From Nanobdellota archaeon (GTDB lineage: Archaea > Nanobdellota > Nanobdellia > Woesearchaeales > GW2011-AR4): a stretch of DNA of 64,000 nt. The stretch is from assembly GCA_038046685.1 (NCBI GenBank), contig JBBSVT010000074.1, positions 389 through 64,388 of the forward strand. The letters run 5' to 3'. Each line of letters begins with the position of its first letter. Position 1 is the first letter of the stretch. Below the pieces are notes generated by a model. The model did not search any database. It was not told the DNA's origin and saw nothing but the letters and a program-made list of their open reading frames with translations. A program made the position numbers and the translations under genes. Positions 5,573 to 62,312 of the stretch are shown here, one piece after another.

Positions 5573-5842
5573 TTGTTTAGATTGAGTATTCATATGCCAA
5601 TCACTATTACATCAGACGAAAAGGGGAATATACACATCCCAAGAGAATTCGGAATAAAGCCAAGAGAGAGGCTATTAATCGACAAAATGGATGATACAAT
5701 ACTTATTAAAAAAGTTAAGCACGAAGTTAAAAATGTAAAAGAAATAGGAGATGAAATAGTTGGAATTCTAAAAGAAAATCTGAAAGATGTTAAATGGGAA
5801 GATATTGAGAAAGGTAGAGAAGATAGAGAAAGAGAATGGTAA
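5573..5842 (+). CDS. AbrB/SpoVT-domain antitoxin (VapB-like); probable true start ATG at 5593
   Basis: MPITITSDEKGNIHIPREFGI swapped-hairpin motif; 4-nt overlap with the downstream PIN gene. Confidence 0.7.
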   Translation: MFRLSIHMPITITSDEKGNIHIPREFGIKPRERLLIDKMDDTILIKKVKHEVKNVKEIGDEIVGILKENLKDVKWEDIEKGREDREREW

Positions 5843-6234
5843 TTGGTGTGGATACAGGATTTTTTATTGAATTGACTAAAGATAATTCTGAAGCAGTTAA
5901 TATCTGGAATAAAATTTTAAGTGGAGACGAAGAATTAGCTGTTTCTGTTATTTCGTTAAATGAATTATCAGTTTATTTTTATAGAACAGGCAACATACAA
6001 AAGAAAGATAAATTAATTGATTTGATTAAATCAATTCCAAATATAGAATTAGTTCCAGTATCTACTTAAATTGCAGAAGAATCAGCAAAATATAGGCATA
6101 GTTTGGGAATTCCAACTGTAGACTCCATAATTTTAACAACTTTTATTCTTCAAGGTTGCAAAGAAATTGTTGCTACAGATAGACATTTTGAGAAGGCTGA
6201 TGAGCAGAATTTAATTAAAGTAAAGATAATCTGA
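5836..6234 (+). pseudogene. VapC PIN-domain toxin interrupted by an in-frame TAA (6067-6069)
   Basis: PIN N-terminus (IGVDTGFFIEL) ends at TAA; the same frame continues ...IAEESAKYRHSLGIPTVDSIILTT...ATDRHFEKA to TGA at 6232-6234; a likely GAA>TAA lesion in 'VPVST*IAEES'. Confidence 0.65.
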
Positions 6235-6936: not shown

Positions 6937-7122
6937 AGTTGCATTATTGGATTATCAACCTACAAAATTCAAATTTATTAAAAAACCTCAACTTTCAATC
7001 AAAACATTTCAAATTAAAAAACTTTTATAAACAAAATAAATTAACTAAATTATATTTCATTGCGAACGAAGTGAGCACTCGGGACTTTATGTCCCGCAAA
7101 GTGTCAACTGATTTTGCAGTTG

Positions 7123-7194
7123 GGGCCCATGGTCTAGTGGCTAGGACACAACCTTCACAGGGTTGGGGCAGGAGTTCAATTCTTCTTGGGCCCA
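7123..7194 (+). tRNA. tRNA-Val (anticodon CAC), CCA not encoded
   Basis: Manual cloverleaf: acceptor GGGCCCA/TGGGCCC, D-stem GTCT/GGAC, anticodon stem CAACC/GGTTG with loop TTCACAG, T-stem AGGAG/CTTCT with loop TTCAATT, discriminator A; 72 nt. Confidence 0.75.
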
Positions 7195-7206
7195 TTAAAT
7201 TATTTT

Positions 7207-18586: not shown

Positions 18587-19357
18587 ATGAACCTATCTAT
18601 ATACCAAAAAGAAGTTTTTGAAAAATACCATAGCAATTCACAAATAGCTAGAGTTCTTACAGAAAGTTGGTTCAAAGAAGAGATGTACTGTCCAGCTTGT
18701 TTACACGAAGAATTGATAAAAAATCCTAATAATACGAAAGTTATAGATTTTTTATGTAGTAATTGTGACAATTCTTTTCAATTAAAGAGCCAATCCTCAT
18801 CATTTCACTCTAGAGTTTTGGATGGAGCATTCAATCCAATGATTGAAACAATAATAGAAAGGACAAATCCGAACTTCTTTTTTATGCACTATTCAAATGA
18901 AGATTGGGAAATAAATAATTTATTACTCATTCCAAAATTCTTTTTTTCAGAATCCATTATAGAAAAACGAAAACCCCTTTCTGAATCAGCAAGGCGTTCT
19001 GGATGGATTGGATGCAATATATTGCTATCAAAACTGCCTATTTCTGGAAAAATTGGTATAATAGAAGATAAAAAGATAATGCCAAAAAATCAAGTTCAAA
19101 GAAATTGGGAAAAATTATATTTCTTAAATAATCAAAAACCAGAAAAAAGGGCATGGACTGCTGATGTATTGTACTGCATTGAAAAGTTAAATAAGAAAGG
19201 ATTTACTCTAAATGATATTTACAATTGTGAAGGTTATCTATCCAAGCTTCATCCAAATAATCAACACATACAAGCAAAAATTCGACAACAATTACAAATT
19301 TTGAGAGATAAAGGAATTCTTGAGTTCAAAAATAAAGGGAATTACACAATAAAATAA
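18587..19357 (+). CDS. DpnI-like (Dam-replacing/DRP family) methyl-directed type IIM restriction endonuclease
   Basis: Blocks recalled from S. pneumoniae DpnI: YCPxC...DFxCxxC, NPNFFF, ARRSGWIGCNI, KIRQQLQILRDKGILEF at the C-terminal winged helix. Confidence 0.75.
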   Translation: MNLSIYQKEVFEKYHSNSQIARVLTESWFKEEMYCPACLHEELIKNPNNTKVIDFLCSNCDNSFQLKSQSSSFHSRVLDGAFNPMIETIIERTNPNFFFMHYSNEDWEINNLLLIPKFFFSESIIEKRKPLSESARRSGWIGCNILLSKLPISGKIGIIEDKKIMPKNQVQRNWEKLYFLNNQKPEKRAWTADVLYCIEKLNKKGFTLNDIYNCEGYLSKLHPNNQHIQAKIRQQLQILRDKGILEFKNKGNYTIK

Positions 19358-20139
19358 TTGTTGGAGATTCTTTAGAAGAATTAAAAAAGATTCTTTCTGA
19401 ATCAGTAGATCTAGTATTTGCTGATCCGCCATATAACATGTCTAAGAAAAAAGGGTTGGGATGGAAATACAGCAACCACATAACTATGCAAGAAGAATGG
19501 GATATATTCTCTAAAGATGATTATCTTCAATTTAATCAAAAATGGATAAAAGAATGTTTAAGAACTTTAAAGCACGGTGGCAGTTTATGGATATGTGGTT
19601 CTTTTCACAATATTTACCAAGTTGGATTTATCTTACAACACATAGAAGATGTAAAAATCAACAATAGTATAGTATGGTTTAAGCCAAATGCTCAGCCAAA
19701 CATAACTTGCAGAATGTTTACAGAAAGCACAGAACATTTAATCTGGGCATCTAAAAATGGGAATGGGCAGAAATGGAAATTCAATTATGAAGAAACCAAA
19801 AAATTAATTCAAGATCCTCTAAATCCTGAAGGTAAACAAACTAGAAATGTTTGGTGGATTCCATTAACCCCAAGAAAGGAAAAATGGGCAGGATCCCATC
19901 CAACTCAGAAACCTTTAGAGTTACTCAGAAGAGTGATCTTATCCTGCACCAATGAAGGAGATACTGTTTTAGATCCATTTTTAGGTTCTGGGACTACTTC
20001 TGTGGCATCAAAAATGCTTGGAAGAAATTCCATCGGTATTGAGAAGGACAAAAGATATTATGATATTATAAAAAAAAGGTTAAATGAGCCGCAAAAGAAA
20101 ATAGAAGAATATGTCGAAGTTGGTCATTTAAATGGCTAA
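19354..20139 (+). CDS. beta-class N6-adenine/N4-cytosine DNA methyltransferase (motif IV DPPY N-terminal, motif I FxGxG C-terminal); non-ATG start inferred
   Basis: Frame open from 19336: KIIVGDSLEELKKILSESVDLVFADPPYN precedes the first ATG (19438); C-terminal VLDPFLGSGTTSVASKMLGR. Only ATA/ATT candidates lie upstream of DPPY. Confidence 0.75.
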   Translation: MIVGDSLEELKKILSESVDLVFADPPYNMSKKKGLGWKYSNHITMQEEWDIFSKDDYLQFNQKWIKECLRTLKHGGSLWICGSFHNIYQVGFILQHIEDVKINNSIVWFKPNAQPNITCRMFTESTEHLIWASKNGNGQKWKFNYEETKKLIQDPLNPEGKQTRNVWWIPLTPRKEKWAGSHPTQKPLELLRRVILSCTNEGDTVLDPFLGSGTTSVASKMLGRNSIGIEKDKRYYDIIKKRLNEPQKKIEEYVEVGHLNG

Positions 20140-21100
20140 TGAGATCGTTAGAGAAATACCTGTAAACCTGTTTGAGATTAATCCTGAAAATCCAAGACTA
20201 ATTTTTGACCAGGAAAAACTCGATAGACTTCTAGAGTCAGTTAAAGAACGAGGAATTCTTGTTCCGTTAAATGTATTTATCAATGATAATAAAAAGTATA
20301 CAATAATAGACGGAGAAAGAAGGTATAAAGTAGCATTGCAACTTGGTTTGACAAAATTACCAGTTATAATAAATGAAAGGCCACGATCTGAAGATTATGT
20401 ACAAGATATGTTCCATATACACAACTTACGTGAACCATGGGAATTAGTTCCAACGGCCATTAAACTCAATCAGGTTATAGAAAATTTTTCAAAAAAACAA
20501 GGACACAAACCTACGGAAAGAGAATTAAACAAATTAACTGGGTTAACTATATCGGAGATTAGACGATGTCGTCTTATTCTTACATTTCCTGAAAAAATCC
20601 AAGACCTAATGTTACAAGATGAAGCTAAAACTAGCAAAGAAAAAAGCATTATTGGAAAGGATAAACTTCTAACAGAAGATTTTTTTATAGAAATGGCTAA
20701 AAATATAATTTCCCCTTTAGAAAAAAATAATCCAAGAGCCTTTAAAGAAATTGGAGGGAGTAAAAAGATATTTGAAGCGGTTATAGAAAAAAGAAAAAGT
20801 GGGCTAATAAAAAACATCGTATCATTGAGACCCTTATCAAAGTGTATAAGAGATCGTCCAATAAAAGGTGGTCAAGCCATTAGAAGTTTTGTTCAAAATC
20901 AAAATTTATCCTCTGAAGATTTGATATCCAAGGTGGGATTGGTATTCGATTTATATAAATTTGAAAGGAATATGAATGTTTTTTATGGTGCCCTCGATAA
21001 TATTCCAAAAGATTTAGTTGCAAAAGATAAAGAGAATATAGTTAAAATTTTAAGAAAAATGAAAAATTCTATCGAACAAAAATTGAAAGAGTTAAGGTAA
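20132..21100 (+). CDS. ParB-like nuclease (ParB/Srx) domain protein
   Basis: ILVPLNVF...YTIIDGERRYKVALQLG (GERR box); ATG overlaps the MTase stop, implying translational coupling. Confidence 0.7.
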   Translation: MANEIVREIPVNLFEINPENPRLIFDQEKLDRLLESVKERGILVPLNVFINDNKKYTIIDGERRYKVALQLGLTKLPVIINERPRSEDYVQDMFHIHNLREPWELVPTAIKLNQVIENFSKKQGHKPTERELNKLTGLTISEIRRCRLILTFPEKIQDLMLQDEAKTSKEKSIIGKDKLLTEDFFIEMAKNIISPLEKNNPRAFKEIGGSKKIFEAVIEKRKSGLIKNIVSLRPLSKCIRDRPIKGGQAIRSFVQNQNLSSEDLISKVGLVFDLYKFERNMNVFYGALDNIPKDLVAKDKENIVKILRKMKNSIEQKLKELR

Positions 21101-21104
21101 TGGT

Positions 21105-21932
21105 ATGGCACTTCTCAAACCAAACGAGCTAGATAGTAAGATTCGTAATAAGCTATTCTCATTCTTAAAGAAAAAATACAAAGTTTATGTACATAAAAAT
21201 TATAGTGTTTATAATAATTTTGCCCCAGATTACTATTTAAAACAAAAAAATGGTAAGAAAACAATTGTTATATATAGAAATCCTCCAGAATTTCCAAATG
21301 TTCAGAGCGAGGATATTAGGACAGCTTTAAAAGAAGGTATAAGTGTTTATATTGCTATATTCAATCATGATTATAATCCATTATTAGACGAGTTAATAAA
21401 TAAGTGCGATACTATTTATGGTGCAGGGGTACTACAAATATCAAATTCTTTCGATTGTGTAGTTCTACAACCTGCTCTTCTTGATGTACCAAAATCAGAT
21501 AATATTATTGAAAATAGAATAAAGATTTTTATAAGTTCAAAGTTATGGATTCCCGAGAGAGATATAACTAGAAATGTTTTAAAAAAAGTTAAATATCAGC
21601 CAATATGTGTAGAAAGGATTCCTGGAGAAAAAACAATTCAAGAAAATTGTTTCAAATGGATAGAAAAAAGTCAATTTTTTATAGCGATCGTAACACGTCA
21701 ATATAGGCAGATGGTAGATAAAGAAATAAAACATGCACTTAAAAAGAAAAAAAAAGAAAAATGCTTATTCTATATTAAAAATGATTGTTTTCAAGAGAAA
21801 AAACTAAAACTTAAAAATTTAATTAAATTTATTCAGAAAGAAGCAACTTTTCACAAATTTGTTAATGAAACCGAGCTTAGAAAAATGCAACCAAAGCAAA
21901 TTGCTGAATTGATTGGTAAAAATACAAAATAA
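21105..21932 (+). CDS. hypothetical protein, C-terminal half weakly TIR-like
   Basis: KIFISS...GEKTIQENCFKWIEKSQFFIAIVTRQY resembles TIR betaA and the alphaC/betaD pattern; no further support. Confidence 0.35.
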   Translation: MALLKPNELDSKIRNKLFSFLKKKYKVYVHKNYSVYNNFAPDYYLKQKNGKKTIVIYRNPPEFPNVQSEDIRTALKEGISVYIAIFNHDYNPLLDELINKCDTIYGAGVLQISNSFDCVVLQPALLDVPKSDNIIENRIKIFISSKLWIPERDITRNVLKKVKYQPICVERIPGEKTIQENCFKWIEKSQFFIAIVTRQYRQMVDKEIKHALKKKKKEKCLFYIKNDCFQEKKLKLKNLIKFIQKEATFHKFVNETELRKMQPKQIAELIGKNTK

Positions 21933-29168: not shown

Positions 29169-29708
29169 ATGTTACAAAAAGATAACAGGTATAAAATATT
29201 AAGATTGTTCTTTGAAGATCCATCACCGAAAGGCATAGGCTTTCAACTTAGGGAAATAAGCAGAAAAGTAGCTATTGCACCTCCATCTGTAAAAAAGTAT
29301 CTAACGGAAATTGAAAAAGAAGGGCTCATAACCAAAGTAAAGCATAGGATTCACGGATATCCTGTTTACTATGCTAATAGGAACAATGATAACTTTAAAT
29401 TTCTTAAGAGATTGGATACGTTAATGAAAATAAAGGAATCCGGGTTAGTAGACTATCTATCAGAAAGTTGTATGCCTGACGTCATCATACTTTTTGGCTC
29501 GTCTGCAAGTGGAGAAGACTTAAAAGATAGTGATATTGACTTATTTATTGCGTCAAAAGATGAAAAACTTAGCTTGGACAAGTTTGAAAGATATCTTAAC
29601 AGGAAAATTAATATATTGTTTAGTGACAGTTTTGGCAAAATGAGCAAAGAACTAAAAAATAACATAATTAATGGTATAATATTAAAGGGCTATTTGAAGG
29701 TTTTTTAA
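29169..29708 (+). CDS. minimal nucleotidyltransferase (MNT-type antitoxin) with N-terminal HTH
   Basis: IILFGSSASGEDLKDSDIDLFI is the NTase GS...DxD motif. Confidence 0.7.
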   Translation: MLQKDNRYKILRLFFEDPSPKGIGFQLREISRKVAIAPPSVKKYLTEIEKEGLITKVKHRIHGYPVYYANRNNDNFKFLKRLDTLMKIKESGLVDYLSESCMPDVIILFGSSASGEDLKDSDIDLFIASKDEKLSLDKFERYLNRKINILFSDSFGKMSKELKNNIINGIILKGYLKVF

Positions 29709-29709
29709 A

Positions 29710-30114
29710 ATGGAAGAAGACTTAATAAAAATAACGCCGAATAAGGAAAAAGCGCACTCTATTTTTAAAATGGTAGAGATAACTCTTGAAATGATAAAGC
29801 AAATAGACAAAAGCAAATTCCCATCAAATATCACAAAAGAATATTATGAAGTAGTAAGGGAGTTGATAAGTATAATTCTGTTGCTGGATGGATACAAAAC
29901 AATGGGTGAAGGAGCACACAAAAGGCAGATAGAGTATTTGGAGGCAAACTATAAAGACTTTAGTAAACATGAGACTGCTTTCATAGATGATTTGAGAGTG
30001 ACAAGGAATTAAATAGCATATGACGGCTTCTTTGTTAAAGAAAGTTATATTGAAAGAAAACTGGTAGATATTCAAAGTATTATAAAAAAAATTGAAAGAG
30101 ATTGTAAAAAATAA
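29710..30114 (+). pseudogene. HEPN-like partner of the MNT, interrupted by an in-frame TAA (30010-30012)
   Basis: Starts 2 nt after the MNT stop; ...DDLRVTRN*IAYDGFF...ERDCKK continues in frame to 30114; total ~134 aa fits a HEPN domain. Confidence 0.45.
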
Positions 30115-30157
30115 GTTGAATTAATTTTTCGCACCAAGAGATTATCGGAACAGCGTT

Positions 30158-32902: not shown

Positions 32903-33595
32903 TTATTTTTTGTATTTTGTGGTTTTTATTAGCTGGTCTTTTTTCTTGAGCTCTGCCATTCGTTTTTCTGCAATTTTAAGCAATTCTTTTGTCACTTTTT
33001 TAGGAATATCAATCCTGTAATTTTCCATTAATTCAGTAAAAAAATCGTAAAGTAGTAGTGGAAAAGCTGCGATACCAATCTTAATTTGCATAGAAGTTTC
33101 ATTTAAGATAATGCCCCAATTGACATTAAATTTTTTAATTAGTTCAGCAGCATCATCCCTGTCTTTTTCTCTTTCAGTGCATGATTTCATCATCAAAATA
33201 TCTTCGGGACTTGCTGTTTTTACCAAGAAATTTCCAAATTCGTGGATTTCTTTTATTCTTTTAAGAGTTTCTAAATGGATTTTAAACCCTATAACTTCGT
33301 TCAAAAAAAGATCAAACCTCGTATCCATTCCGTCCATAATAGTTGGCTTGACTTCCGCATCTTCCCTGAATATATTTCTTATATTCCTTCTTTCATCGAA
33401 TCCTGCATTAACAAGAACTTTTTTAACATCCTCTAAATCTTCTTTTTTTAAAAAAACCAAGTCAACATCTTTTGTTGTTATTTTAGCTCCGTAAAACATC
33501 ATTGCAGAGCCACCTATTGCCACACATTCCACTTTATTTTTTAACTGGCTGCCAATTATCTTAAAAAGTCCTATTTGTTCTTCAAGGTTTATCAT
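32903..33595 (-). CDS. AbiEii-like nucleotidyltransferase (putative type IV TA/Abi toxin)
   Basis: VAIGGSAMMFYGAKITTKDVDLVF NTase motif; 4-nt overlap with the upstream HTH gene. Confidence 0.5.
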   Translation of the reverse strand: MINLEEQIGLFKIIGSQLKNKVECVAIGGSAMMFYGAKITTKDVDLVFLKKEDLEDVKKVLVNAGFDERRNIRNIFREDAEVKPTIMDGMDTRFDLFLNEVIGFKIHLETLKRIKEIHEFGNFLVKTASPEDILMMKSCTEREKDRDDAAELIKKFNVNWGIILNETSMQIKIGIAAFPLLLYDFFTELMENYRIDIPKKVTKELLKIAEKRMAELKKKDQLIKTTKYKK

Positions 33596-34218
33596 TCTTT
33601 ATAAGCCTTTAAGTCTGCTTTGTTGAAAGGCAAGTGCACTTTCCATTCTTTTTCTATGTGTTTTAAGTCTTTTGTTTTTATATGTTTCACTATCTCTTTA
33701 TCTTTTACTTGGCTGTTCAGCAGAGCCTTTCTTGTTCTTTCATCCATGTGTTTGACTCTTATGATGCTTCTTGCAGTATCATATAATGCGCCTACTTTTC
33801 TGCCGACTAACTCTTGCGTTGCAAGTTGGCTCAGCCTTTGCCAATTTGTTACCCTGTTAAACAATGCTAATGATGACAGTATTGTCCTTAAGTCGCCTGT
33901 TTTAACCGATTTAACAATCATCTCTTCTGCAGTTGGCTTATGGTCATAAATTCTTTCAGCATATGGCGGATAAATTTTTATCTTGGAATGCTGGTTCAAA
34001 TATTCATAAAGTCCATTGTATCCAAGCTTTTTCACAATTAATGGAGCTATCTTGTACATTCTTATCTTTCTTTTTCCATACTTTGTTTCTACAAAGCCCT
34101 CTTTTCTTAGATTCCAAATGCGGTTAATGGCGGTTCTTCTATTTATGTTGAGGACCCTTGATACGCTATTAACCGTTTGCAATCCTTCAAGTTTCTTGGC
34201 AAGTTCAATTGAATCCAT
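33592..34218 (-). CDS. AbiEi-like HTH transcriptional regulator / antitoxin
   Basis: N-terminal wHTH (SVSRVLNINRRTAINRIWNLRKEG); operonic with the NTase. Confidence 0.45.
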   Translation of the reverse strand: MDSIELAKKLEGLQTVNSVSRVLNINRRTAINRIWNLRKEGFVETKYGKRKIRMYKIAPLIVKKLGYNGLYEYLNQHSKIKIYPPYAERIYDHKPTAEEMIVKSVKTGDLRTILSSLALFNRVTNWQRLSQLATQELVGRKVGALYDTARSIIRVKHMDERTRKALLNSQVKDKEIVKHIKTKDLKHIEKEWKVHLPFNKADLKAYKE

Positions 34219-38791: not shown

Positions 38792-39034
38792 ATGGATATG
38801 ATAAAGAAAATATCCAAAGGGTACCGCATAACGATTCCCGCAGAAATAAGGAAGCAATTTGATTTAACCATAGGCACACCCATAGATATAGAAGTTAAAA
38901 AAGAAGAAATAATAATAAAACCATTTAATGCCAAAAAAGAAATGGAGAGGCTTTTCGAAGAAGCAGATAAACTGCCTATGCATAATTTGAGTCCAGAAGA
39001 TTTAGAAAAAATGGAAGAGGAAATATATGAATAA
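38792..39034 (+). CDS. AbrB/SpoVT-domain protein (orphan antitoxin-like)
   Basis: KGYRITIPAEIRKQFDLTIGTPIDIEV. Confidence 0.6.
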   Translation: MDMIKKISKGYRITIPAEIRKQFDLTIGTPIDIEVKKEEIIIKPFNAKKEMERLFEEADKLPMHNLSPEDLEKMEEEIYE

Positions 39035-39212
39035 ATTTATTGACTCAAATGATATAATATTTACGTTCACTAACAGCAGTCAAAAGCACAGATGCAGAAA
39101 AATTTTAATTGAAGAAAATATTACTATGACAAGCATTTTGATAAGCTTGAAATAAAAAGGGTTGAGCCGTAGAGATGCTCTACTTTTTGTTTAAGGTCTT
39201 TTTTGTTTCAGA

Positions 39213-41000
39213 TTAACTTCTTGGCTTGAAGGGATTTCTCGGCAAGTCGTGTCCCCAGTATTTTGTACCACTAAATTTACCTCCCTCAGTTACAAGCCCT
39301 ATATTAGGTCCGATATCATAGCCGCCTATGGCATCACCTATCGCCTCCAACACTTCCATAACTCCTGCTTTATTTGGGTCGCCGGTGCCGCCCCAATACT
39401 TGGTTTCTTCAATAACACGGTGCAAAATGTATAACGCCGCTCCTCTGGTAGTTATTGTTGGCTTTTCAGACTGATGGCTTAATATATTCTCCTGCAAGTC
39501 GTAATAGTACTTTCTACCAATATGCTTATCTTTGTCTTCTGCTCTCGGGTCAAAAGCAGGATTAAGATGGCTTGGCCTTATTGTCATTTCAACATATTCC
39601 GGATCTGAAGGTGGCCTTAAAGATGTCTCTGTTGTTTTCCCGGAAAGCTTATTTAATATCATCCTAACCTTAGCGTGTCTTCCGTGGTCAATATCTCTTT
39701 TTGTCTGTGGATGCACATTGTACTTCTCAGCCAAAGATTTTGGTTTTCTTGGGTCAATAGATTTTAATTCAGTCATTATTCTTTCCATTACTGTAATTGC
39801 ATTCTTGTGATACCTTCCGTCTCTCAAATCATCCCTGTACGCATCATAACTGACATAAACCCAATATGCTATATCTAACAAATCACAATCTTCTATGAAA
39901 TGTGAAGGTACTGTTCGTACTTCACTTCGAGGGCGTCCTTCATAAATGTCAATGAGCACTTTTCCTTTTTCCAATGGTTTTCCCTCAAACAGAGTTTCAC
40001 CATCACCAACTTCAAGAGGATATCCATTCTTGTCAAGCCCAGGCGCAACTTCTTCAGGTCTTTTAAAGTTTGCAGGAAGTGTGTTAATGTTATCATTTGT
40101 TGGATTTTCAGCATCATCCAAGAGACGCCCATCACTGTCCAAAGGCTTGATGACTTTGTAGGTGTGTGCATAATGCACCTTTTGATATCCCAATCGTTTT
40201 TTCATCACATTCTGTCTTAGCTTTCTTAGTTCTGCATGCCTGCCTAATACGCCGCCTTCACCCTTGCTTCCTCCAAGTGCCTTTCTATGCTCTTCTTCAA
40301 AATTCACCATCTTTTGTTGCAAATACTTTTTCAAGTCCATTATTTTGCTGTGGATAATTTTTATGTTATCCCCAACACGTTGATTATTAGGCAACGCTGC
40401 CTTAACGTCTGCACATATCTTTTCAATATCCCTATCTAATTGATTCCAGTATTCACTATTCCGGGCCCCAAAGTAAGCAACTTGGTATCTTAAATTTTTA
40501 TGGACTATCCACTTTTCAGGGGGAAGATTAAATCTCACATTAATGATTCCACCCCCACTTGCTGTTAAGTCAATAGGAAGTTCAACGGGAGGTTGTTCTG
40601 TAGGGCTAGAGAAAGTTCCAGAATCGGACAATTTATACTCCTGTAATAGCGATTTTTCATTAATAAAAGGCCCTATGCTTGAGCCTATTTCATGCTTGTC
40701 AGACACAAATTCAGAATATAATTCTCTAAGTCTATTTCTATAAAATTGCGCACTCGGTTCTTGTCCTTTACCCTCAAGGCCGTCCCAACTCAGTTCCGCT
40801 TCCACCATCTCCTTATTCAATTTTTGTATTGTGTCAAATTCTATCTCCTTCTTCAATTTTTGGTAAATGCCAATATTTTTAATATCTTCTTCAGGACCAA
40901 AATGTACCGGAAAACCTATAAACCTTAAACCTCTCCAAAGGTTGGTTCTCCAATTAAGAAATCTTCTGGGTAAAGGTTTTTGCTCAGCCATAGCGCTCAC
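39213..41000 (-). CDS. large uncharacterised protein (operon gene 5)
   Basis: 595-aa ORF, no recognisable motif; 17-nt overlap with the upstream gene. Confidence 0.5.
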   Translation of the reverse strand: MSAMAEQKPLPRRFLNWRTNLWRGLRFIGFPVHFGPEEDIKNIGIYQKLKKEIEFDTIQKLNKEMVEAELSWDGLEGKGQEPSAQFYRNRLRELYSEFVSDKHEIGSSIGPFINEKSLLQEYKLSDSGTFSSPTEQPPVELPIDLTASGGGIINVRFNLPPEKWIVHKNLRYQVAYFGARNSEYWNQLDRDIEKICADVKAALPNNQRVGDNIKIIHSKIMDLKKYLQQKMVNFEEEHRKALGGSKGEGGVLGRHAELRKLRQNVMKKRLGYQKVHYAHTYKVIKPLDSDGRLLDDAENPTNDNINTLPANFKRPEEVAPGLDKNGYPLEVGDGETLFEGKPLEKGKVLIDIYEGRPRSEVRTVPSHFIEDCDLLDIAYWVYVSYDAYRDDLRDGRYHKNAITVMERIMTELKSIDPRKPKSLAEKYNVHPQTKRDIDHGRHAKVRMILNKLSGKTTETSLRPPSDPEYVEMTIRPSHLNPAFDPRAEDKDKHIGRKYYYDLQENILSHQSEKPTITTRGAALYILHRVIEETKYWGGTGDPNKAGVMEVLEAIGDAIGGYDIGPNIGLVTEGGKFSGTKYWGHDLPRNPFKPRS

Positions 41001-42732
41001 TCATAAATTTGCTGGTTCTTTCGGTTACATACCCAACATCTTCTAAAAGTATTCTTTGTTTAGACCAATTCACTAAAGTTAGATAGGCATTAATCATTCT
41101 TTGAACTCCTTTCCTTATTAGCGTTAAATCATAGTTGCTCAAAGCATTATCCTTTTGCTTGATTTGTTCTATAAAGTCGCCGAATTGATTGTGGAACTCA
41201 CCAAGCCGAGCAAAATCAAAGTCTAGCATAAGCAGATATGAAAACTTTGCTGGGTCTAAAATGTTTACAGCTTCCAATACTTTCTCTTTGTGCTCTGAAA
41301 ATTTCACAATGCTTCCTCCTTGAGTAGCCAATTGTTCAGCTTCAGCTTCTATATCAAACATCTCTTCCAATTTTTCAAAATGCTCAGCAATGTCCATATA
41401 CATCACGTCAACCCTGTCATAAGTATATATAAATCTTTTTTTTCTGTTTTTCCAGAGCCTATCGACGTCTCTTTTGAGCGCGTCAATGCCCTTTTGGACT
41501 GCTGATACTAGATTGATTTCACCGCTTTCAGCCATAATTGCCCGGTTAATTTGCAGGATAAGCCTTGCAATTGCATCTCTTAATAGTCCACTTCTCTTTT
41601 CAAATACGGCAGCGAGATATTTTCCTGCATCACCAATCACAGCATTCTTTCTTCTCATTAACTCCTCTAAGCGGCCTCTCCATCCGTTTAATATGGTTAT
41701 CCACTTAAGTGGTTGCTGTCCTATTCTTTCTTTATTTTTCAGTAAGTAGCTTGCAAAGGGATTATCAGCATATTCTGTTCTGAAAGTGGCAGCATACTCC
41801 TCTATATGTTTACAAAATTCCTCAGTAGCCTCAGCCCTCATCCATTTAGACTTGCCAAATTTGTCAGTTTGTATATCCCTCTGCAGCATTGAAATCAATC
41901 GTGAGATAAATCCTATTTGCTCAGCAACCTTGTGTGTGAATCGAGCTACGTAATAAAGCATTTGAACCTCTCTGCTGCCAAACACGGCTTTTCTTAAGAT
42001 CTGGTCTTTGTTGAATGTATCAAGTCCCTTGAGCAGTTTCCCATCTGGTGTTTTTACATCTTCTTCAAAATAAGAACGCGTTCTGTCAGTGAAAAAAAGA
42101 ACATCAAAATGCACATGCTGGCTCCAATCATTGACATCTCTTAAGGCATAATTTAAAGACTCAATTTCACCCATATACCTTTTTATTAAAGTTAGCCTAT
42201 TGCGAATGTTCGCTTTTAATTTCTCATCTTCCAACAATTCAACAATATGCAACAGCGAAGCAATATCTTTCTCCAATTTTCCTAAGTCATTAATATCACC
42301 AGAAATTTTTTGAAGCACGCCAATTCCCCTCTCTCTTGCCAACCCGTGTTTTCTTATTAACTGCATCAGCTCTTTGTCTATCAATCGCGCAAATTCTGGG
42401 TTATTTGTCTTGAATTCTTCCAGTCTTCGCTCCAGAATCTCATCTAAAGCCCCTAAACTTAATGTTCCGCTTCTAACTTGTGCCATCAACTTTTGTAAGT
42501 GGAAAATGAACATGTAATCAAATGCCTTTTTCTCCAATTCTTCTTTATTGCCAATAATAGAATTTGCATTATCCACAACAAGCCTTAGATTTTCAATTGT
42601 GTTCAGCGCTTCTTCCAAAAATCTTGAAACTTCATTGTCAAATAATCTTTGAGGCGTATCAATTCCAGGTTTGTCTAAGTCAGTTCTTGTCATTAGGTTA
42701 TCTGAAGTTGGATTATTTGGCAACTGTTTCAC
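40984..42732 (-). CDS. large uncharacterised alpha-helical protein (operon gene 4)
   Basis: 582-aa ORF; 20-nt overlap upstream. Confidence 0.5.
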   Translation of the reverse strand: MKQLPNNPTSDNLMTRTDLDKPGIDTPQRLFDNEVSRFLEEALNTIENLRLVVDNANSIIGNKEELEKKAFDYMFIFHLQKLMAQVRSGTLSLGALDEILERRLEEFKTNNPEFARLIDKELMQLIRKHGLARERGIGVLQKISGDINDLGKLEKDIASLLHIVELLEDEKLKANIRNRLTLIKRYMGEIESLNYALRDVNDWSQHVHFDVLFFTDRTRSYFEEDVKTPDGKLLKGLDTFNKDQILRKAVFGSREVQMLYYVARFTHKVAEQIGFISRLISMLQRDIQTDKFGKSKWMRAEATEEFCKHIEEYAATFRTEYADNPFASYLLKNKERIGQQPLKWITILNGWRGRLEELMRRKNAVIGDAGKYLAAVFEKRSGLLRDAIARLILQINRAIMAESGEINLVSAVQKGIDALKRDVDRLWKNRKKRFIYTYDRVDVMYMDIAEHFEKLEEMFDIEAEAEQLATQGGSIVKFSEHKEKVLEAVNILDPAKFSYLLMLDFDFARLGEFHNQFGDFIEQIKQKDNALSNYDLTLIRKGVQRMINAYLTLVNWSKQRILLEDVGYVTERTSKFMSERYG

Positions 42733-44374: not shown

Positions 44375-45357
44375 TTAGGTGTACCTCCTGTTGTGCCTGT
44401 AGTTCCGCCAGGTGATCCTTTCCACCACCTACTGAATGCTTTCCAGCCGATTGTTCCAAAAATAAATGAAACTATAAGCGAACCATATTGGCGCCAATCA
44501 TCTCCCCTCCATGGATAAGGGAAAGCATTTTGCCAAAACCAAGTTATGACTCCTCTTCCTGGAAATACAATGTAGGATATCCACAAAACAAGTCCTACGG
44601 CAACAAAGTAGTTGTACCATTTGCCTCCAAGCTGCTTTCCTAAAACTATAATTGAAAGGAGTTCTCCCAACTTGATTATTGTATCAGTTGTGGTGCCACT
44701 TTTGGCAATATCAGCAGCAATGATTAGCGCCATTGCATACGAAAGCTTGTTGTACCCTTCTCCCATCTTGAGGAAACCAACAAAGAACCACGATAGTAAT
44801 ACTGCAGAACCTATAAAAACGTACAACCTGTTGTCTTCTGGACTTAAGATGCCTTTTTCGCCTAAAAGGTAATTATAAAATTGTTGCAAAGTTTGTGTAT
44901 TCCATACATAACTTTCCAGCCTTAATGAAATTATTGCAGCAATAAAAGTTATCAACAATAATGCCCCAACCTTTCCCTGTTTTGATTCAAGAGGTACTCC
45001 AAGCAATCCCAAACTGAAATAAACAACTCCCGAAATTAATATTGTGTTGACTATGACGACTGGGTTAAACATACCAGCAAAAGCTCCGACTTCCCAAATA
45101 AAGCCGCTAGAGCCAATAAATACCCACGCTATAATAAACGATAATCCAAAAGTTGCAATCCACAATATTGCTTTTTCTTTGTCTGACTTTTCCGGCATTA
45201 GTATGTATTGCAGCAAAAATAAAATAACCCATATTATTGCCGTATTTATTGCTAAAACAACCCATGGATTTCTTGGCGACACTTCCTGAGCAAAAACTGA
45301 GGGAATTCCAATTACCAAGATTAATGCGCTAATCCAAAGCATTTTGCCTATTTTCAT
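44371..45357 (-). CDS. polytopic membrane protein with Gly/Thr-rich C-terminal tail (operon gene 2)
   Basis: About eight hydrophobic helices; ...WKGSPGGTTGTTGGTPK; ATGA overlap with the ATPase gene. Confidence 0.5.
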   Translation of the reverse strand: MKIGKMLWISALILVIGIPSVFAQEVSPRNPWVVLAINTAIIWVILFLLQYILMPEKSDKEKAILWIATFGLSFIIAWVFIGSSGFIWEVGAFAGMFNPVVIVNTILISGVVYFSLGLLGVPLESKQGKVGALLLITFIAAIISLRLESYVWNTQTLQQFYNYLLGEKGILSPEDNRLYVFIGSAVLLSWFFVGFLKMGEGYNKLSYAMALIIAADIAKSGTTTDTIIKLGELLSIIVLGKQLGGKWYNYFVAVGLVLWISYIVFPGRGVITWFWQNAFPYPWRGDDWRQYGSLIVSFIFGTIGWKAFSRWWKGSPGGTTGTTGGTPK

Positions 45358-47045: not shown

Positions 47046-47046
47046 C

Positions 47047-51683: not shown

Positions 51684-51762
51684 AAATCGAAAACGATAAT
51701 TATTTATATTTTGTAAGTTAAGGATTTCTGCGACATATAAAAACCATAAATTAATATAAAGA

Positions 51763-52120
51763 TGAAAGAAGAAGTAAAGAGATGGTGAGCAAAAGCAAAA
51801 GACGACTTAGATAAAGCTGTAATCTTATTCAATAATGGGAAAATGATGGTACTGCATTTTTTTGTCAACAATCTGTTGAGAAGGGGTTAAAAGCATTAGC
51901 TCTTAAAGAAAAGAGTTTTATAAACAAAATTCATGACCTTGTTGAATTAGGAAAAGATGTCAACTTGCCACAACATTTGATTGTTTACTGCAGTGAATTA
52001 ACTTTATCCTATATCTATTCAAGGTACCCTGACGTTGAGGATAAAGACATAAAATCTGTGTCAGATAATTTCTTAAAATATACCAAAGAAATACTAAAAT
52101 GGATAGAAAAGAAGCTATAG
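51763..52120 (+). pseudogene. HEPN-domain toxin paralog with in-frame TGA at codon 9 and a homopolymer frameshift
   Basis: MKEEVKRW-TGA-AKAKDDL...; after a T8 run the reading continues in another frame (FCQQSVEKGLKALALKEKSF...KEILKWIEKKL*) matching the intact paralog at 57769..58161. Confidence 0.6.
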
Positions 52121-52416
52121 CTAAGCTGAAAAGTTTTAAAAAATTGGTAAGTAAGGATTTAACAATTAGTGATATGTATTTTTTTGGTTCCATAGCAACT
52201 GGTAAACCGCATAAATACAGTGATATAGATTTAGTCATAGTGAGTCCTAAATTTAGAGAGTTAAATTTTTTTAAAAGAGGCGCACTTATGTATAATTATT
52301 GGAATTTAAGATACCCAGTTGACTTCCTTTGCTACACTCCAGAAGAATTTAACAAATTGAAGAAACAAATAACAATTGTAAAGGAAGCTGTTGAGAATGG
52401 AATAGAAATTCGATAG
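52099..52416 (+). CDS. minimal nucleotidyltransferase (MNT antitoxin), paralog of 58137..58454
   Basis: MYFFGSIATGKPHKYSDIDLVIV; C-terminus identical to its paralog (YPVDFLCYTPEEF...IVKEAVENGIEI). Confidence 0.7.
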   Translation: MDRKEAIAKLKSFKKLVSKDLTISDMYFFGSIATGKPHKYSDIDLVIVSPKFRELNFFKRGALMYNYWNLRYPVDFLCYTPEEFNKLKKQITIVKEAVENGIEIR

Positions 52417-56750: not shown

Positions 56751-57254
56751 ATGAAGATTGCCATAGACTCGTGCAGCGTTATATTGCTGGCTAAAGCGAC
56801 TGTTTTAGAGGCAGTGGCTAGCAACTATGACTTGTTAATATCAGATAATGTTTATAAAGAAATTTTGCAGGGTAAAGATAAGAAATTCATTGATGCTTTA
56901 GTGACAGAAAAACTTGTAAAAGACGGCAAGTTAAAAATAAGTAAAGTTAAGGAAGCTAAAATAATCAAAAAATTAATTAGAGATTTTAGCTTAGGAATTG
57001 GAGAAGCAGAGACCTTAGCATTTGTGTTAGGTAGCCAGTGTGAAGCCATAAGTACTGATAACAAACAAGGCAGAAAAGTGGCAAAGATATATAACTTAAA
57101 TTTGATAGGAAGTATCGATTTAATAATCAGCCTATTTAAGTTGAAGATTATAGATAATTACAAAGCGATTAGCGCTTTGAAGATGTTAAAAGAATTTGGA
57201 TGGTTTCAGGATTATTTAATTGACAGTGCTTTAGAGGAAGTTAAAAATGTATAA
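56751..57254 (+). CDS. DUF3368-like (PIN-like) putative toxin
   Basis: IAIDSCSVILLAK...; paired with a UPF0175-like gene at a 8-nt overlap. Confidence 0.45.
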   Translation: MKIAIDSCSVILLAKATVLEAVASNYDLLISDNVYKEILQGKDKKFIDALVTEKLVKDGKLKISKVKEAKIIKKLIRDFSLGIGEAETLAFVLGSQCEAISTDNKQGRKVAKIYNLNLIGSIDLIISLFKLKIIDNYKAISALKMLKEFGWFQDYLIDSALEEVKNV

Positions 57255-57567
57255 GACAAAATTTTTGGGTTTGAGGATGGAAAAGGAAATTTATGATATT
57301 ATAGATAAAGTTACTCACGAAGAAAAGTTAGATAAAACATCAGCCATAAAAATATTAATTCAGGAAGGATGGAAAGAATTGAGATTAAAAAAAGCTTTGA
57401 ACGAGTATCAAAATGGATTGGTGTCTGTAGATAGAGCATCAAAAATAGCAGGGCTAACAATAAGCGAGATGATGAAAGAAATTGCTTCGCATGGCATAAA
57501 ATCAGATGAGACTTTAGAGGAATATAGAAAAGGCATAAAAATATTACAAAAATTGGAGGCAAGATAA
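57247..57567 (+). CDS. UPF0175-like putative antitoxin
   Basis: ALNEYQNGLVSVDRASKIAGLTISEMMKEIASHGI. Confidence 0.45.
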   Translation: MYKTKFLGLRMEKEIYDIIDKVTHEEKLDKTSAIKILIQEGWKELRLKKALNEYQNGLVSVDRASKIAGLTISEMMKEIASHGIKSDETLEEYRKGIKILQKLEAR

Positions 57568-57650
57568 GTGTAAGGTGCTATGAAGAATCAGTTGTGATTT
57601 TGTGATGGGAACTAACAAAAGCACAAATTAAAAAAATTCAACAATTTTTT

Positions 57651-57768: not shown

Positions 57769-58161
57769 ATGTATCAAGAATTATTGGTAATAACAATGAA
57801 AGAGGAAATTAAGAGATGGATGGAATTTGCAAAAGATGATTTGAAGAAGGCGCATGATAATTTTAATATTGAAAATTATAATCTAAGTTCTTTTTTATGC
57901 CAGCAAGCAGTTGAAAAGGCTTTAAAAGCCATGTTAATTAAAAAAATGAATAAGTATCCAAAAATACATGATTTAGTAATGTTGGGAAATTTGGCTGGTT
58001 TGGATAAAAACTTATTAAAATATTGCGAAAAATTGACTTTTGTGTACACTGAAACAAGGTACCCAGATACAAGTTATCGAAAATACTCAAAAGAAGAGTC
58101 AGAAGAGGATATTAAAAATACTGAAGAAATCTTGAAATGGATAGGAAAAAAACTATTATAA
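57769..58161 (+). CDS. HEPN-domain protein (toxin of a HEPN-MNT pair), intact
   Basis: 130 aa; C-terminal ...ETRYPD...; pairs with the downstream MNT at a 25-nt overlap. Confidence 0.65.
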   Translation: MYQELLVITMKEEIKRWMEFAKDDLKKAHDNFNIENYNLSSFLCQQAVEKALKAMLIKKMNKYPKIHDLVMLGNLAGLDKNLLKYCEKLTFVYTETRYPDTSYRKYSKEESEEDIKNTEEILKWIGKKLL

Positions 58162-58454
58162 AAAAACTTGAAAGGTTTAAAGGTCAAATACAAAACAATA
58201 TTGATGTAGATAAAATTATATTCTTCGGTTCTAGAGTTCATGGAAAACCGTATAAGGATAGCGATATAGATTTAATAATAGTCTCAAAAGATTTTAGAGA
58301 AAAAAAATTCAGATATAGGCCAATAGGATTTTATGATTATTGGGACTTAGATTACCCAGTTGACTTCCTTTGCTACACTCCAGAGGAATTCAACAAATTC
58401 AAAAAACAAGTAACAATAGTCAAGGAAGCAGTAGAGAATGGAATTGAGATTTAG
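58137..58454 (+). CDS. minimal nucleotidyltransferase (MNT antitoxin)
   Basis: IIFFGSRVHGKPYKDSDIDLIIV. Confidence 0.7.
   Translation: MDRKKTIIKKLERFKGQIQNNIDVDKIIFFGSRVHGKPYKDSDIDLIIVSKDFREKKFRYRPIGFYDYWDLDYPVDFLCYTPEEFNKFKKQVTIVKEAVENGIEI

Positions 58455-61722: not shown

Positions 61723-62312
<590 letters not shown>

What the first reader, a model, noticed from the sequence alone, without database searches (positions are those of the whole stretch)
5836..6234. Recurrent inactivation of toxin genes while cognate antitoxins stay intact (VapC TAA; HEPN TAA; HEPN TGA plus frameshift)
Three separate toxin ORFs carry lesions: VapC at 6067 (TAA at a likely Glu codon), the HEPN partner at 30010 (TAA), and the HEPN paralog at 51763-52120 (TGA at codon 9 plus a frameshift in a T8 run). 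The adjacent AbrB and MNT antitoxin genes are intact. I considered stop-codon reassignment and rejected it, because TAA, TGA and TAG all terminate conserved housekeeping genes here. The pattern suggests ongoing decay or domestication of TA toxins, or it may reflect assembly errors at homopolymers.
Basis: seen in the sequence. Interest (0 to 1): 0.55.

Follow-up and report, generated by a model that had tools for sequence, protein, structure and literature searches.

The report
Decaying toxin genes beside intact antitoxins
In this 64-kb piece of a groundwater DPANN archaeon, four of about nine predicted toxin genes of toxin-antitoxin pairs are broken by stop codons, 1-base indels or a deletion while every partner antitoxin gene is intact; the lesions are real, but this toxin-first decay is already known from bacteria.

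Summary

**Source.** The window is contig Hain_H14_02um_R1_53, from a Hainich groundwater MAG that NCBI names 'Nanoarchaeota archaeon'. Its relatives are Woesearchaeota.

**Lesions, by comparison with intact homologues:**
- **VapC, 5836-6234:** Lys78 AAA to TAA.
- **HEPN-fold gene, 29710-30124:** near-invariant Lys101 AAA to TAA inside its R..RNKI.Y.G motif.
- **HEPN, 51762-52120:** invariant Trp9 TGG to TGA, plus a 1-nt deletion in the Tyr28 codon. The frameshift is not in the T-run.
- **Fourth case, 39027-39172:** a VapC remnant with a deletion of about 235 nt, next to an intact MazE/AbrB antitoxin.

**Rivals tested.**
- All substitution lesions are identical in independent assemblies, so they are not assembly errors.
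- The 65 intact ORFs end in TAA, TGA or TAG with no internal stops, so the code is standard.
- Only toxins are hit: 4 of 9 toxins versus 0 of 60 other genes (p about 1e-4).
- Five predicted toxins in the window remain intact.

**Explanation.** This is ordinary toxin-first erosion of toxin-antitoxin (TA) modules. Only the toxin can be lost safely while it is still active.

**Verdict.** A known phenomenon in a new host. Interest is modest.

The parts
5594..5842 (+).
   Evidence: The ORF is intact and overlaps the VapC start by 7 nt. The same 82-aa gene precedes an intact 132-aa VapC in L018. pN/pS against L018 is 0.21. No Pfam or NCBIfam hit.
5836..6234 (+). VapC (PIN) toxin pseudogene with in-frame TAA at 6067-6069 (codon 78)
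   Evidence: The joined ORF matches PIN at E=2.9e-13. More than 20 intact 132-aa homologues exist, and the nearest have Lys AAA at the stop column. D6, E43, D96 and D115 are retained. Downstream of the stop there are 14 synonymous and 1 nonsynonymous differences to P0001. The sequence is identical in L001-L003.
29169..29708 (+). Intact wHTH plus nucleotidyltransferase (MNT-type) predicted antitoxin
   Evidence: Pfam NTP_transf_2 E=2.9e-8, Polbeta and HTH_24. The GS...DxD motif is present in the sequence. Weak NCBIfam MntA hit. It is 38% identical to an intact paralogue in L012.
29710..30124 (+). HEPN-fold partner pseudogene: TAA at 30010-30012 (codon 101) plus an extra A in the A8 run at 30084-30091
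   Evidence: The family has more than 400 members of 136-137 aa. The stop column is a near-invariant Lys inside R..RNKI.Y.G. The AF2 model of the 87%-identical homologue P0033 has pLDDT 94.5, and the top Foldseek PDB hits are HEPN proteins at TM 0.5-0.68. TAA is identical in four assemblies. The A-run reads A7 only in the error-prone SRR32696688 assembly.
38792..39034 (+). Intact MazE/AbrB-type antitoxin, now orphaned
   Evidence: Pfam MazE_antitoxin E=1.7e-10 and NCBIfam AbrB domain E=2.9e-10. It is 76-79% identical to orthologues that sit upstream of intact VapC genes.
39027..39172 (+). VapC remnant: the N-terminal 32 codons are fused out of frame to the C-terminal 15 codons, an internal deletion of about 235 nt
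   Evidence: Sequence and ORFs. Alignment to intact 126-aa PIN orthologues in L019, L020 and L022. The L022 orthologue matches Pfam PIN at E=1.2e-19. The same remnant is present in L016.
51762..52120 (+). HEPN (PF05168) toxin pseudogene: TGA at 51786-51788 (codon 9) and a 1-nt deletion in codon 28 (51843-51844)
   Evidence: The reconstructed protein matches Pfam HEPN at E=7.9e-22. Family alignment shows invariant Trp at the TGA column and near-invariant Tyr at the shift site. The sequence is identical in the R1 and R2 ENA assemblies and in the Logan ERR3858140/41 assemblies.
52099..52416 (+). Intact MNT antitoxin of the broken HEPN
   Evidence: Pfam NTP_transf_2 E=2e-13 covering profile positions 2-89 of 93. 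It is 62% identical to, and the same length as, the MNT of the intact pair.
57769..58454 (+). Intact paralogous HEPN (57769-58161) and MNT (58137-58454) pair, used as comparator
   Evidence: Pfam HEPN E=1.7e-27 and NTP_transf_2 E=2.9e-11. It is 50% identical to the broken HEPN.
56751..57567 (+). Intact DUF3368 (PIN-like) plus UPF0175 pair, used as comparator
   Evidence: Precomputed Pfam DUF3368 hit and UPF0175 at E=1.5e-7.
61723..62294 (-). Intact DUF433 plus DUF5615 (PIN-like) pair, used as comparator
   Evidence: Pfam DUF433 E=2.6e-21 and DUF5615 E=1.6e-18.
32903..34218 (-). Intact DUF6036 (AbiEii-like nucleotidyltransferase) plus wHTH protein, a possible AbiE-like pair; weak assignment
   Evidence: Pfam DUF6036 E=1e-6, AbiEii E=0.018 and TrmB wHTH E=0.003.

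Best explanation
These are real, recently formed pseudogenes. They were produced by the usual one-way erosion of chromosomal toxin-antitoxin (TA) modules.

The window holds about nine TA-like pairs. In four of them the predicted RNase toxin has been knocked out:
- two PIN/VapC genes;
- one classical HEPN gene;
- one HEPN-fold gene of an unnamed family.

The lesions are ordinary spontaneous mutations: AAA to TAA twice, TGG to TGA once, two 1-nt indels, and one deletion of about 235 nt. All four partner antitoxin genes remain full length.

The asymmetry follows from how TA modules work. While the toxin is active, any mutation that removes the antitoxin kills or arrests the cell. Only toxin-inactivating mutations can therefore survive. 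Antitoxin loss becomes neutral only afterwards. A snapshot of a genome that is shedding TA modules consequently shows broken toxins next to intact antitoxins.

What is shown and what is inferred:
- Shown: the lesions, their ancestral states, their reproducibility across assemblies, their restriction to toxins, and the standard genetic code.
- Inferred: that the intact versions are toxic RNases, that the partners neutralise them, and that the antitoxins persist only because too little time has passed.
For: **Ancestral states.** Intact homologues of identical length exist for every broken gene, and the lesion columns are conserved sense residues:
- Lys (the nearest homologues' AAA codon) for VapC.
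- Near-invariant Lys101 for locus 2.
- Invariant Trp and near-invariant Tyr for locus 3.

**Multiple hits.** Loci 2 and 3 each carry two independent lesions. A fourth toxin is a deletion remnant flanked by an intact antitoxin, while its orthologues in three Woesearchaeota-like MAGs are intact 126-aa PIN proteins.

**Reproducibility.** The lesions are base-for-base identical in ENA assemblies of replicates R1 and R2 and in Logan assemblies of several runs. No intact allele closer than 89%, 87% or 79% identity was found among 5.8 billion proteins.

**Standard code.** Sixty-five intact ORFs have no internal stop and use all three stop codons. There is no suppressor tRNA in the window.

**Specificity.** Four of 9 toxins are disrupted versus 0 of 60 other genes, p=1.5e-4. 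Against the antitoxins (0 of 9), p=0.04.

**Recency of the VapC lesion.** All four catalytic acidic residues are kept. Downstream of the stop, pN/pS is 0.02 (14 synonymous, 1 nonsynonymous difference).

Against: - No read-level data were available, so minor intact alleles in the population cannot be excluded.
- The A8-run insertion at locus 2 reads A7 in one assembly.
- Toxicity and neutralisation are untested for all of these proteins.
- Neither HEPN-type family has the canonical Rx4-6H motif.
- The 5594-5842 'antitoxin' has no family assignment.
- The strong purifying-selection signal downstream of the VapC TAA fits a very recent lesion. It would equally fit continued translation of that region.
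- The enrichment test is biased, because broken genes of unknown family would go unnoticed.
- Only 64 kb of the genome was examined.
Confidence: 0.85

Rival explanations
1. The antitoxins are retained by selection rather than by lack of time. After toxin loss they would serve one of three roles: immunity ('anti-addiction') against related TA modules arriving on mobile elements, cross-neutralisers of the intact paralogous toxins in the same genome, or DNA-binding regulators. This refines the decay model rather than replacing it.
For: - All four antitoxins are intact, including the partner of the oldest-looking lesion, the deletion remnant.
- Intact paralogous pairs exist for the HEPN/MNT pair and the wHTH-NTase pair.
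- The orphan antitoxin shows no excess of lineage-specific replacements: 6 versus a mean of 4.3 in lineages with intact toxins. Its pN/pS of about 0.15 is the same as between intact lineages.
Against: - The numbers are too small to tell. Given the gene sizes, the chance that both 'second hits' fell in the toxin rather than the antitoxin is about 0.23 under neutrality (my calculation from the coordinates).
- Synonymous divergence to the available orthologues is near saturation (pS about 0.7), so constraint after toxin loss cannot be isolated.
- The MNT paralogues are only 62% identical, and TA pairs are usually specific.
Confidence: 0.2
2. The lesions are sequencing or assembly artefacts, and the real genes are intact.
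For: - One lesion lies in a homopolymer: the A8 run at 30084-30091, which reads A7 in the Logan SRR32696688 assembly.
- No raw reads could be inspected.
Against: - The three nonsense changes and the locus 3 deletion are not in long homopolymers.
- All are identical across ENA R1/R2 assemblies and several Logan assemblies made with a different assembler.
- The assembly with A7 also carries 1-nt deletions that break a leucyl aminopeptidase gene and other genes, so it is the less reliable witness.
- Artefacts would not fall only on toxins.
Confidence: 0.03
3. The stops are programmed. They would act through readthrough, frameshifting or a variant genetic code, keeping toxin dosage very low.
For: - The stop columns align with Lys, Lys and Trp, as a reassignment would predict.
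- The VapC region after the TAA shows strong purifying selection, pN/pS 0.02.
Against: - Lys AAA and Trp TGG are simply the commonest one-step precursors of TAA and TGA. AAA makes up 6.4% of codons here.
- None of the stops is conserved in any homologue.
- Two of the genes also carry frameshifts, and a fourth carries a deletion.
- Sixty-five ORFs use TAA, TGA and TAG as terminators with none internal.
- There is no suppressor tRNA in the window.
- RNA folds around the lesions are no more stable than shuffled sequence: z = 0.04, -0.35 and 1.06.
Confidence: 0.03

Closest known systems
Two-step erosion of chromosomal type II TA systems (Photorhabdus, PMC13617665; also the decay of ccdO157 in E. 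coli, recalled from my own knowledge of Mine et al. 2009)
   Same: Toxin genes carry truncations, point mutations or small deletions while antitoxins remain. Toxin inactivation precedes antitoxin loss. Different modules in one genome sit at different stages of decay.
   Different: The host here is a DPANN (Woesearchaeota-like) archaeon from groundwater. The modules include HEPN/MNT-type pairs as well as VapBC. Nothing here has been validated by kill-rescue assays. Only one 64-kb contig was examined, not a genus-wide comparison.
VapBC type II TA modules (PIN-domain RNase toxin with an upstream overlapping antitoxin)
   Same: Both VapC genes have a PIN domain with the four acidic residues. Each has a small upstream gene overlapping its start, and the pairing is conserved in relatives.
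   Different: Both VapC copies discussed here are inactivated. The antitoxin of the first pair matches no known antitoxin family.
HEPN/MNT type VII TA modules (HepT/MntA of Shewanella, PMC7641770; HEPN-T family PF05168 as classified in PMC3710099)
   Same: A HEPN-domain or HEPN-fold protein is paired with a minimal nucleotidyltransferase carrying GS...DxD. The genes are adjacent or overlapping.
   Different: The characterised HepT belongs to DUF86 and has Rx4-6H. Locus 3 belongs to HEPN-T (PF05168), with R-Y-P-D and a conserved His elsewhere. Locus 2 belongs to an unnamed family of about 137 aa that has R-N-K-I-A-Y, with Tyr where His is expected. Gene order at locus 3 is HEPN then MNT, the reverse of the usual order (PMC3710099). 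The locus 2 NTase has an extra N-terminal wHTH domain.

Membership tests
VapBC type II TA (locus 1, 5594-6234) | Toxin has a PIN domain with four conserved acidic residues | tested here: met
   Pfam PIN E=2.9e-13 on the joined ORF. D6, E43, D96 and D115 align with the conserved acidic columns of the family: D115 invariant, D6, E43 and D96 nearly invariant.
VapBC type II TA (locus 1, 5594-6234) | Small antitoxin gene immediately upstream, with the pairing conserved | tested here: met
   The genes overlap by 7 nt. The same pair of 82 aa and 132 aa is found in L018.
VapBC type II TA (locus 1, 5594-6234) | Antitoxin belongs to a known DNA-binding antitoxin fold (AbrB/SpoVT, RHH, PHD, HTH) | tested here: not met
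   No Pfam hit up to E=5 and no NCBIfam hit. No similarity to the MazE/AbrB antitoxin at 38792. Structure was not predicted.
VapBC type II TA (locus 1 and remnant 39027-39172) | Toxin arrests growth and the antitoxin rescues it | not testable with these tools
   This needs a kill-rescue assay with repaired alleles.
HEPN/MNT type VII TA (locus 3, 51762-52416) | HEPN domain protein adjacent to a minimal nucleotidyltransferase | tested here: met
   HEPN PF05168 E=7.9e-22 and NTP_transf_2 E=2e-13. The genes overlap by 22 nt.
HEPN/MNT type VII TA (locus 3, 51762-52416) | Canonical Rx4-6H RNase motif in the HEPN protein | tested here: not met
   The invariant residues are R88-Y-P-D91 and H58. No His follows the Arg at a spacing of 4-6 residues. 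This matches the 'D replaces H, conserved H elsewhere' variant of HEPN-T in PMC3710099.
HEPN/MNT type VII TA (locus 2, 29169-30124) | Partner protein is a HEPN domain | tested here: inconclusive
   Sequence profiles fail: HEPN_Swt1 E=0.008, below the cut-off; hhalign probability 0.2% against the PF05168 family; no PDB sequence hit. Predicted fold agrees: AF2 pLDDT 94.5, and the best Foldseek hits are HEPN proteins 2hsb, 1ylm, 3o10 and 5yep at TM 0.5-0.68 but with E >= 5e-3.
HEPN/MNT type VII TA (locus 2, 29169-30124) | Canonical Rx4-6H motif | tested here: not met
   The invariant motif is R96..R99-N-K-I-x-Y104-x-G, with Tyr at the His position. There is an invariant H70 elsewhere.
HEPN/MNT type VII TA (loci 2 and 3) | MNT nucleotidylylates the HEPN toxin to neutralise it | not testable with these tools
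   Biochemical assay required. Only the GS...DxD motif can be seen in the sequence.
Pseudogene formed by TA erosion (toxin-first decay) | Disabling lesion relative to intact, conserved homologues of the same length | tested here: met
Pseudogene formed by TA erosion (toxin-first decay) | Lesion is real, meaning reproducible in independent data | tested here: met
   Identical in ENA R1 and R2 and in multiple Logan assemblies. The A8-run insertion is the one exception, reading A7 in one error-prone assembly. Raw reads were not inspected.
Pseudogene formed by TA erosion (toxin-first decay) | Cognate antitoxin is full length with its motifs intact | tested here: met
   Lengths equal those of orthologues or paralogues: 82 vs 82, 80 vs 78-85, 105 vs 105, and 179 vs 176 aa. 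The NTase domains are covered in full.
Pseudogene formed by TA erosion (toxin-first decay) | Relaxed selection on the dead gene | tested here: inconclusive
   For VapC downstream of the stop, pN/pS is 0.02, so no relaxation is visible yet. The remnant N-terminus has 4 lineage-specific replacements against a mean of 2, including V9D, but the numbers are tiny.
Stop-codon reassignment or programmed recoding | In-frame stops are widespread in conserved genes or conserved across homologues, with a suppressor tRNA or a recoding signal | tested here: not met
   No internal stops in 65 ORFs, and all three stop codons terminate genes. Homologues have sense codons at the stop columns. Only tRNA-Val was found. 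Fold z-scores are about 0.

The most novel reading that the evidence does not exclude
The orphaned antitoxins are not just leftovers. Selection keeps them in this TA-dense DPANN genome. They would act as immunity against related TA modules carried by invading mobile elements or by the host organism. Alternatively they would buffer the still-intact paralogous toxins. A less likely variant is that the single-lesion VapC is still made at trace level by TAA readthrough, which would explain the strong constraint downstream of the stop.
Probability: 0.15. Interest if true: 0.5.

Novelty: new member of a known kind. Interest (0 to 1): 0.28.

Why it matters
- **Annotation.** These four genes should be marked as pseudogenes, not as short hypothetical proteins as the public records do now.
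- **Biology.** This is a clean archaeal (DPANN) snapshot of TA modules caught at several stages of toxin-first erosion. It extends to a reduced-genome, probably host-dependent archaeon a pattern so far documented mainly in bacteria.
- **Resource.** It supplies matched broken and intact paralogue pairs that could be used to test whether orphan antitoxins are kept for a reason.
- **Limit.** It does not reveal a new mechanism.

Tried and rejected
- **Stop-codon reassignment.** Rejected. Sixty-five ORFs end in TAA (39), TGA (16) or TAG (10) with no internal stop. The only tRNA found is tRNA-Val(CAC), and there are no other Rfam hits.
- **Recoding signals.** Rejected. 101-nt RNA windows around the three lesions fold no better than shuffled sequence, with z = 0.04, -0.35 and 1.06.
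- **Frameshift in the T-run at locus 3.** Rejected. The T7 run is in frame with the family's A-F-F-C, and the shift lies in the Tyr28 codon.
- **Sequence-profile link between the locus 2 partner and HEPN.** This failed with Pfam, hhalign and a PDB profile search. Only the predicted fold links them.
- **AbrB assignment of 5594-5842.** No support was found.
- **Timing the orphan antitoxin's constraint after toxin loss.** The orthologues are too diverged, with pS about 0.7.
- **Other disrupted genes.** No intergenic gap exceeds 409 bp. All genes with Pfam families have typical lengths. None was found, but unknown-family fragments could be missed.
- **One look-up failed.** The ORF at 40984-42732 has a GTG start that differs from the public gene call.
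- An off-window sequence was in the alignment. The job was rerun with homologues only.
Full report
**Source and setting**

The window is 100% identical to ENA contig Hain_H14_02um_R1_53 (67.5 kb, sample ERZ1292646). This comes from groundwater well H14 of the Hainich site. NCBI carries the same proteins as 'MAG: Nanoarchaeota archaeon' with locus tags AABX33_. The nearest genome relatives are Woesearchaeota MAGs from groundwater. G+C content is 35.5%.

**Checking the observation**

The three reported lesions are present.

- **Locus 1.** The region 5836-6234 translates to a 132-codon PIN protein interrupted by TAA at 6067-6069. The joined sequence matches Pfam PIN at E=2.9e-13.
- **Locus 2.** The region from 29710 is interrupted by TAA at 30010-30012.
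- **Locus 3.** It has TGA at 51786-51788 and then changes frame. The reconstructed protein matches Pfam HEPN (PF05168) at E=7.9e-22.

The neighbouring genes are uninterrupted:
- 5594-5842 (82 aa);
- 29169-29708 (wHTH plus nucleotidyltransferase);
- 52099-52416 (minimal nucleotidyltransferase).

The two nucleotidyltransferases have full domain matches.

**Ancestral states, from intact homologues**

*VapC.* More than 20 intact 132-aa homologues were found at up to 89% identity.
- The two nearest homologues compared at DNA level have Lys AAA at the stop column. More distant ones have Glu or Arg.
- The lesion is therefore a single AAA to TAA change.
- The four acidic PIN residues (D6, E43, D96, D115) are all retained.

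*Locus 2.* The gene belongs to a family of more than 400 proteins of 136-137 aa that has no Pfam model.
- The stop replaces a near-invariant Lys inside the invariant motif R..RNKI.Y.G.
The window's C-terminus (…KKIERDCKK*) departs from the family. Deleting one A from the A8 run at 30084-30091 restores …KKLKEIVKNKLN* and the family length of 137 aa.

*Locus 3.*
- The TGA replaces an invariant Trp (TGG to TGA).
- The frame change is a missing base in the near-invariant Tyr28 codon: GGG AAA [T]AT GAT GGT, at 51843-51844.
- The nearby T-run has seven T's, not eight. It reads in frame as A-F-F-C, exactly as in the family.
- The frameshift is therefore not a homopolymer event.

**A fourth case**

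The gene 38792-39034 encodes an intact MazE/AbrB-type antitoxin (Pfam E=1.7e-10; NCBIfam AbrB domain E=2.9e-10).

It is followed by a 42-codon ORF beginning MNKFIDSN…. In another frame the region ends …YDKHFDKLEIKRVEP*.

In three related MAGs the orthologous antitoxin is followed by an intact 126-aa PIN protein (Pfam E=1.2e-19). The first 32 and the last 15 residues of that protein align with the two window fragments.

The window copy has thus lost about 235 nt from the middle of the gene. The deletion is out of frame.

**Are the lesions real?**

- Locus 1 is identical in the Logan assemblies of SRR32696688 and SRR32696715.
- The TAA at locus 2 is identical in the assemblies of SRR32696715, SRR32696688 and SRR32696693.
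- Locus 3 is identical in the separate ENA assembly of replicate R2 and in the Logan assemblies of ERR3858140 and ERR3858141.
- The VapC remnant is identical in SRR32696681.

The only discordance is the A8 run, which reads A7 in the SRR32696688 assembly. That assembly also has 1-nt deletions at two CAGGCCTG sites and in an A5 run, and these split an M17 aminopeptidase gene and other genes. I therefore treat it as error-prone and regard the A8 insertion as probable but not certain.

No intact allele closer than 89%, 87% or 79% identity exists in the protein collection. I could not inspect raw reads.

**Genetic code and recoding**

- I compiled 65 intact ORFs covering 86% of the window. They end in TAA (39), TGA (16) or TAG (10) and have no internal stop.
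- The only tRNA or Rfam hit is tRNA-Val(CAC).
- RNA folding around the lesions is indistinguishable from shuffled controls.
- The stops align with Lys, Lys and Trp. This is what one-step mutation predicts in an A+T-rich genome where AAA makes up 6.4% of codons.

**Specificity**

Gene calls and Pfam assignments were gathered for the whole contig. They give about nine predicted toxins.

Four are broken. Five are intact:
- DUF3368, a PIN-like protein, paired with UPF0175;
- HEPN, paired with MNT;
- DUF5615, a PIN-like protein, paired with DUF433;
- a DUF6036/AbiEii-like nucleotidyltransferase with a wHTH partner;
- a weak DUF4258-like gene with a MazE-like partner.

None of about 60 other genes is visibly disrupted, and no intergenic gap exceeds 409 bp.
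- Toxins (4 of 9) versus other genes (0 of 60): one-sided Fisher p=1.5e-4.
- Toxins (4 of 9) versus antitoxins (0 of 9): p=0.04.

The test is biased, because broken genes of unknown family would be missed.

**Age of the lesions**

I compared the VapC DNA with its 89% and 81% identical homologues. The 54 codons after the TAA differ from the nearest homologue by 14 synonymous changes and only 1 nonsynonymous change (pN/pS 0.02). On the window's own branch there are 8 synonymous changes and 1 nonsynonymous change.

Almost all of that divergence therefore accumulated under purifying selection, so the stop is recent. The same signal would arise if the region were still translated. I consider that unlikely but cannot exclude it for this single-lesion gene.

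Loci 2 and 3 have two lesions each, and the remnant has lost two-thirds of its length. The modules therefore appear to sit at different stages of decay.

For the orphan antitoxin at 38792, the orthologues are too distant (pS about 0.7) to detect constraint after toxin loss. Its lineage-specific replacements (6) are not clearly more than in lineages with intact toxins (mean 4.3).

**What the proteins are**

*Locus 3* and its intact paralogue (50% identity) belong to HEPN-T (PF05168).
- They have invariant R-Y-P-D and a conserved His elsewhere.
- This matches the variant described in the HEPN census (PMC3710099), not the canonical Rx4-6H motif.

*The locus 2 partner* is linked to HEPN by predicted fold only.
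- The AlphaFold2 model of the 87%-identical intact homologue has mean pLDDT 94.5.
- The best Foldseek matches are HEPN proteins: AF_0298, YutE, sacsin HEPN, and the SO_3166 HepT toxin. TM-scores are 0.5-0.68, but E-values are no better than 5e-3.
- Sequence profiles give nothing significant.
- Its motif has Tyr where His is expected.

*The 82-aa gene upstream of VapC* matches no antitoxin family.

Toxicity and neutralisation are inferred from family membership and gene arrangement for all of these proteins.

**Mechanism**

The best explanation is ordinary toxin-first erosion of chromosomal TA modules. While a toxin is active, loss of its antitoxin is lethal or arresting. The only viable route to module loss therefore begins with toxin inactivation, and the antitoxin becomes dispensable only afterwards.

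[quoted passage not shown] From my own knowledge, the decay of ccdO157 in E. coli is an earlier example.

The data cannot decide whether the antitoxins here persist through lack of time or through selection (anti-addiction, cross-neutralisation of paralogous toxins, or regulation). Given the gene sizes, the chance that both second hits fell in the toxins under neutrality is about 0.23.

**Verdict**

- The finding is real, reproducible and statistically non-random.
- Several details needed correction, and the pattern is stronger than reported.
- It is a new instance, in a DPANN archaeon, of an already described evolutionary process. It is not a new kind of system.

Noticed in passing
It is a VapC remnant with an internal deletion of about 235 nt, next to an intact MazE/AbrB antitoxin. 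Orthologues in three MAGs are intact 126-aa PIN proteins.
   Followed up: yes
window 30084-30091: A second lesion in the locus 2 toxin: an extra A in an A8 run shifts the last 11 codons out of frame. One Logan assembly (SRR32696688) has A7, so this could be polymorphic or a homopolymer miscall.
   Followed up: partly
L002 and L007 (Logan SRR32696688), aligned to window 9613, 27423 and 30725: This assembly has 1-nt deletions inside the same 8-mer, CAGGCCTG, at two unrelated sites, and in an A5 run. The deletions split an M17 peptidase gene, a 177-aa gene and a serine hydrolase gene. The recurrence at one motif suggests a systematic sequencing error, possibly linked to a methylation motif, rather than real mutations.
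   Followed up: partly
window, whole; e.g. 5594-6234, 29169-30124, 32903-34218, 38792-39172, 46803-47355, 51762-52416, 56751-58454, 61723-62294: TA density is unusually high for a small-genome DPANN archaeon, with about nine TA-like pairs in 64 kb. Another intact wHTH-NTase plus 137-aa pair lies just beyond the window end (L012 16236-17176).
   Followed up: partly
window 29710-30124 and homologues P0033-P0152: A family of more than 400 proteins of 136-137 aa with no Pfam model. It is always about the same length, has invariant R..RNKI.Y.G and H70, and is predicted with high confidence to adopt a HEPN fold. It is paired with wHTH-NTase genes in Woesearchaeota and Nanoarchaeota MAGs. It may deserve its own HEPN subfamily model.
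   Followed up: partly
window 52291-52410 vs 58332-58451: The two MNT paralogues are 62% identical overall, but their last 40 or so residues are nearly identical (87% nt identity over 120 nt). This could reflect gene conversion or a strongly constrained C-terminal segment.
   Followed up: no
window 6061-6069: Codons 76-78 of VapC differ from both close homologues at three consecutive first codon positions: ACT GCT AAA became TCT ACT TAA. The nonsense change may be part of a clustered multi-nucleotide event.
   Followed up: no
window 18587-21932: A gene cluster of a DpnI-like methyl-directed restriction enzyme, an N6/N4 DNA methyltransferase, a ParB_N-domain protein and DUF4062 (weak hit). It looks like a defence cluster with an odd pairing of a methylation-dependent nuclease and a methyltransferase.
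   Followed up: no
window 39213-46499 (- strand): Five tightly packed genes of 592, 569, 553, 328 and 381 aa with no Pfam hit. A homologue of the first gene lies next to the orthologous VapBC pair in a Woesearchaeota MAG (L020 3663-5582), so the neighbourhood is conserved.
   Followed up: no
window 7025-7195 (- strand) vs tRNA-Val 7123-7194 (+): The public gene calls include a 56-aa ORF that overlaps the tRNA-Val(CAC) gene. It is probably a spurious call.
   Followed up: no
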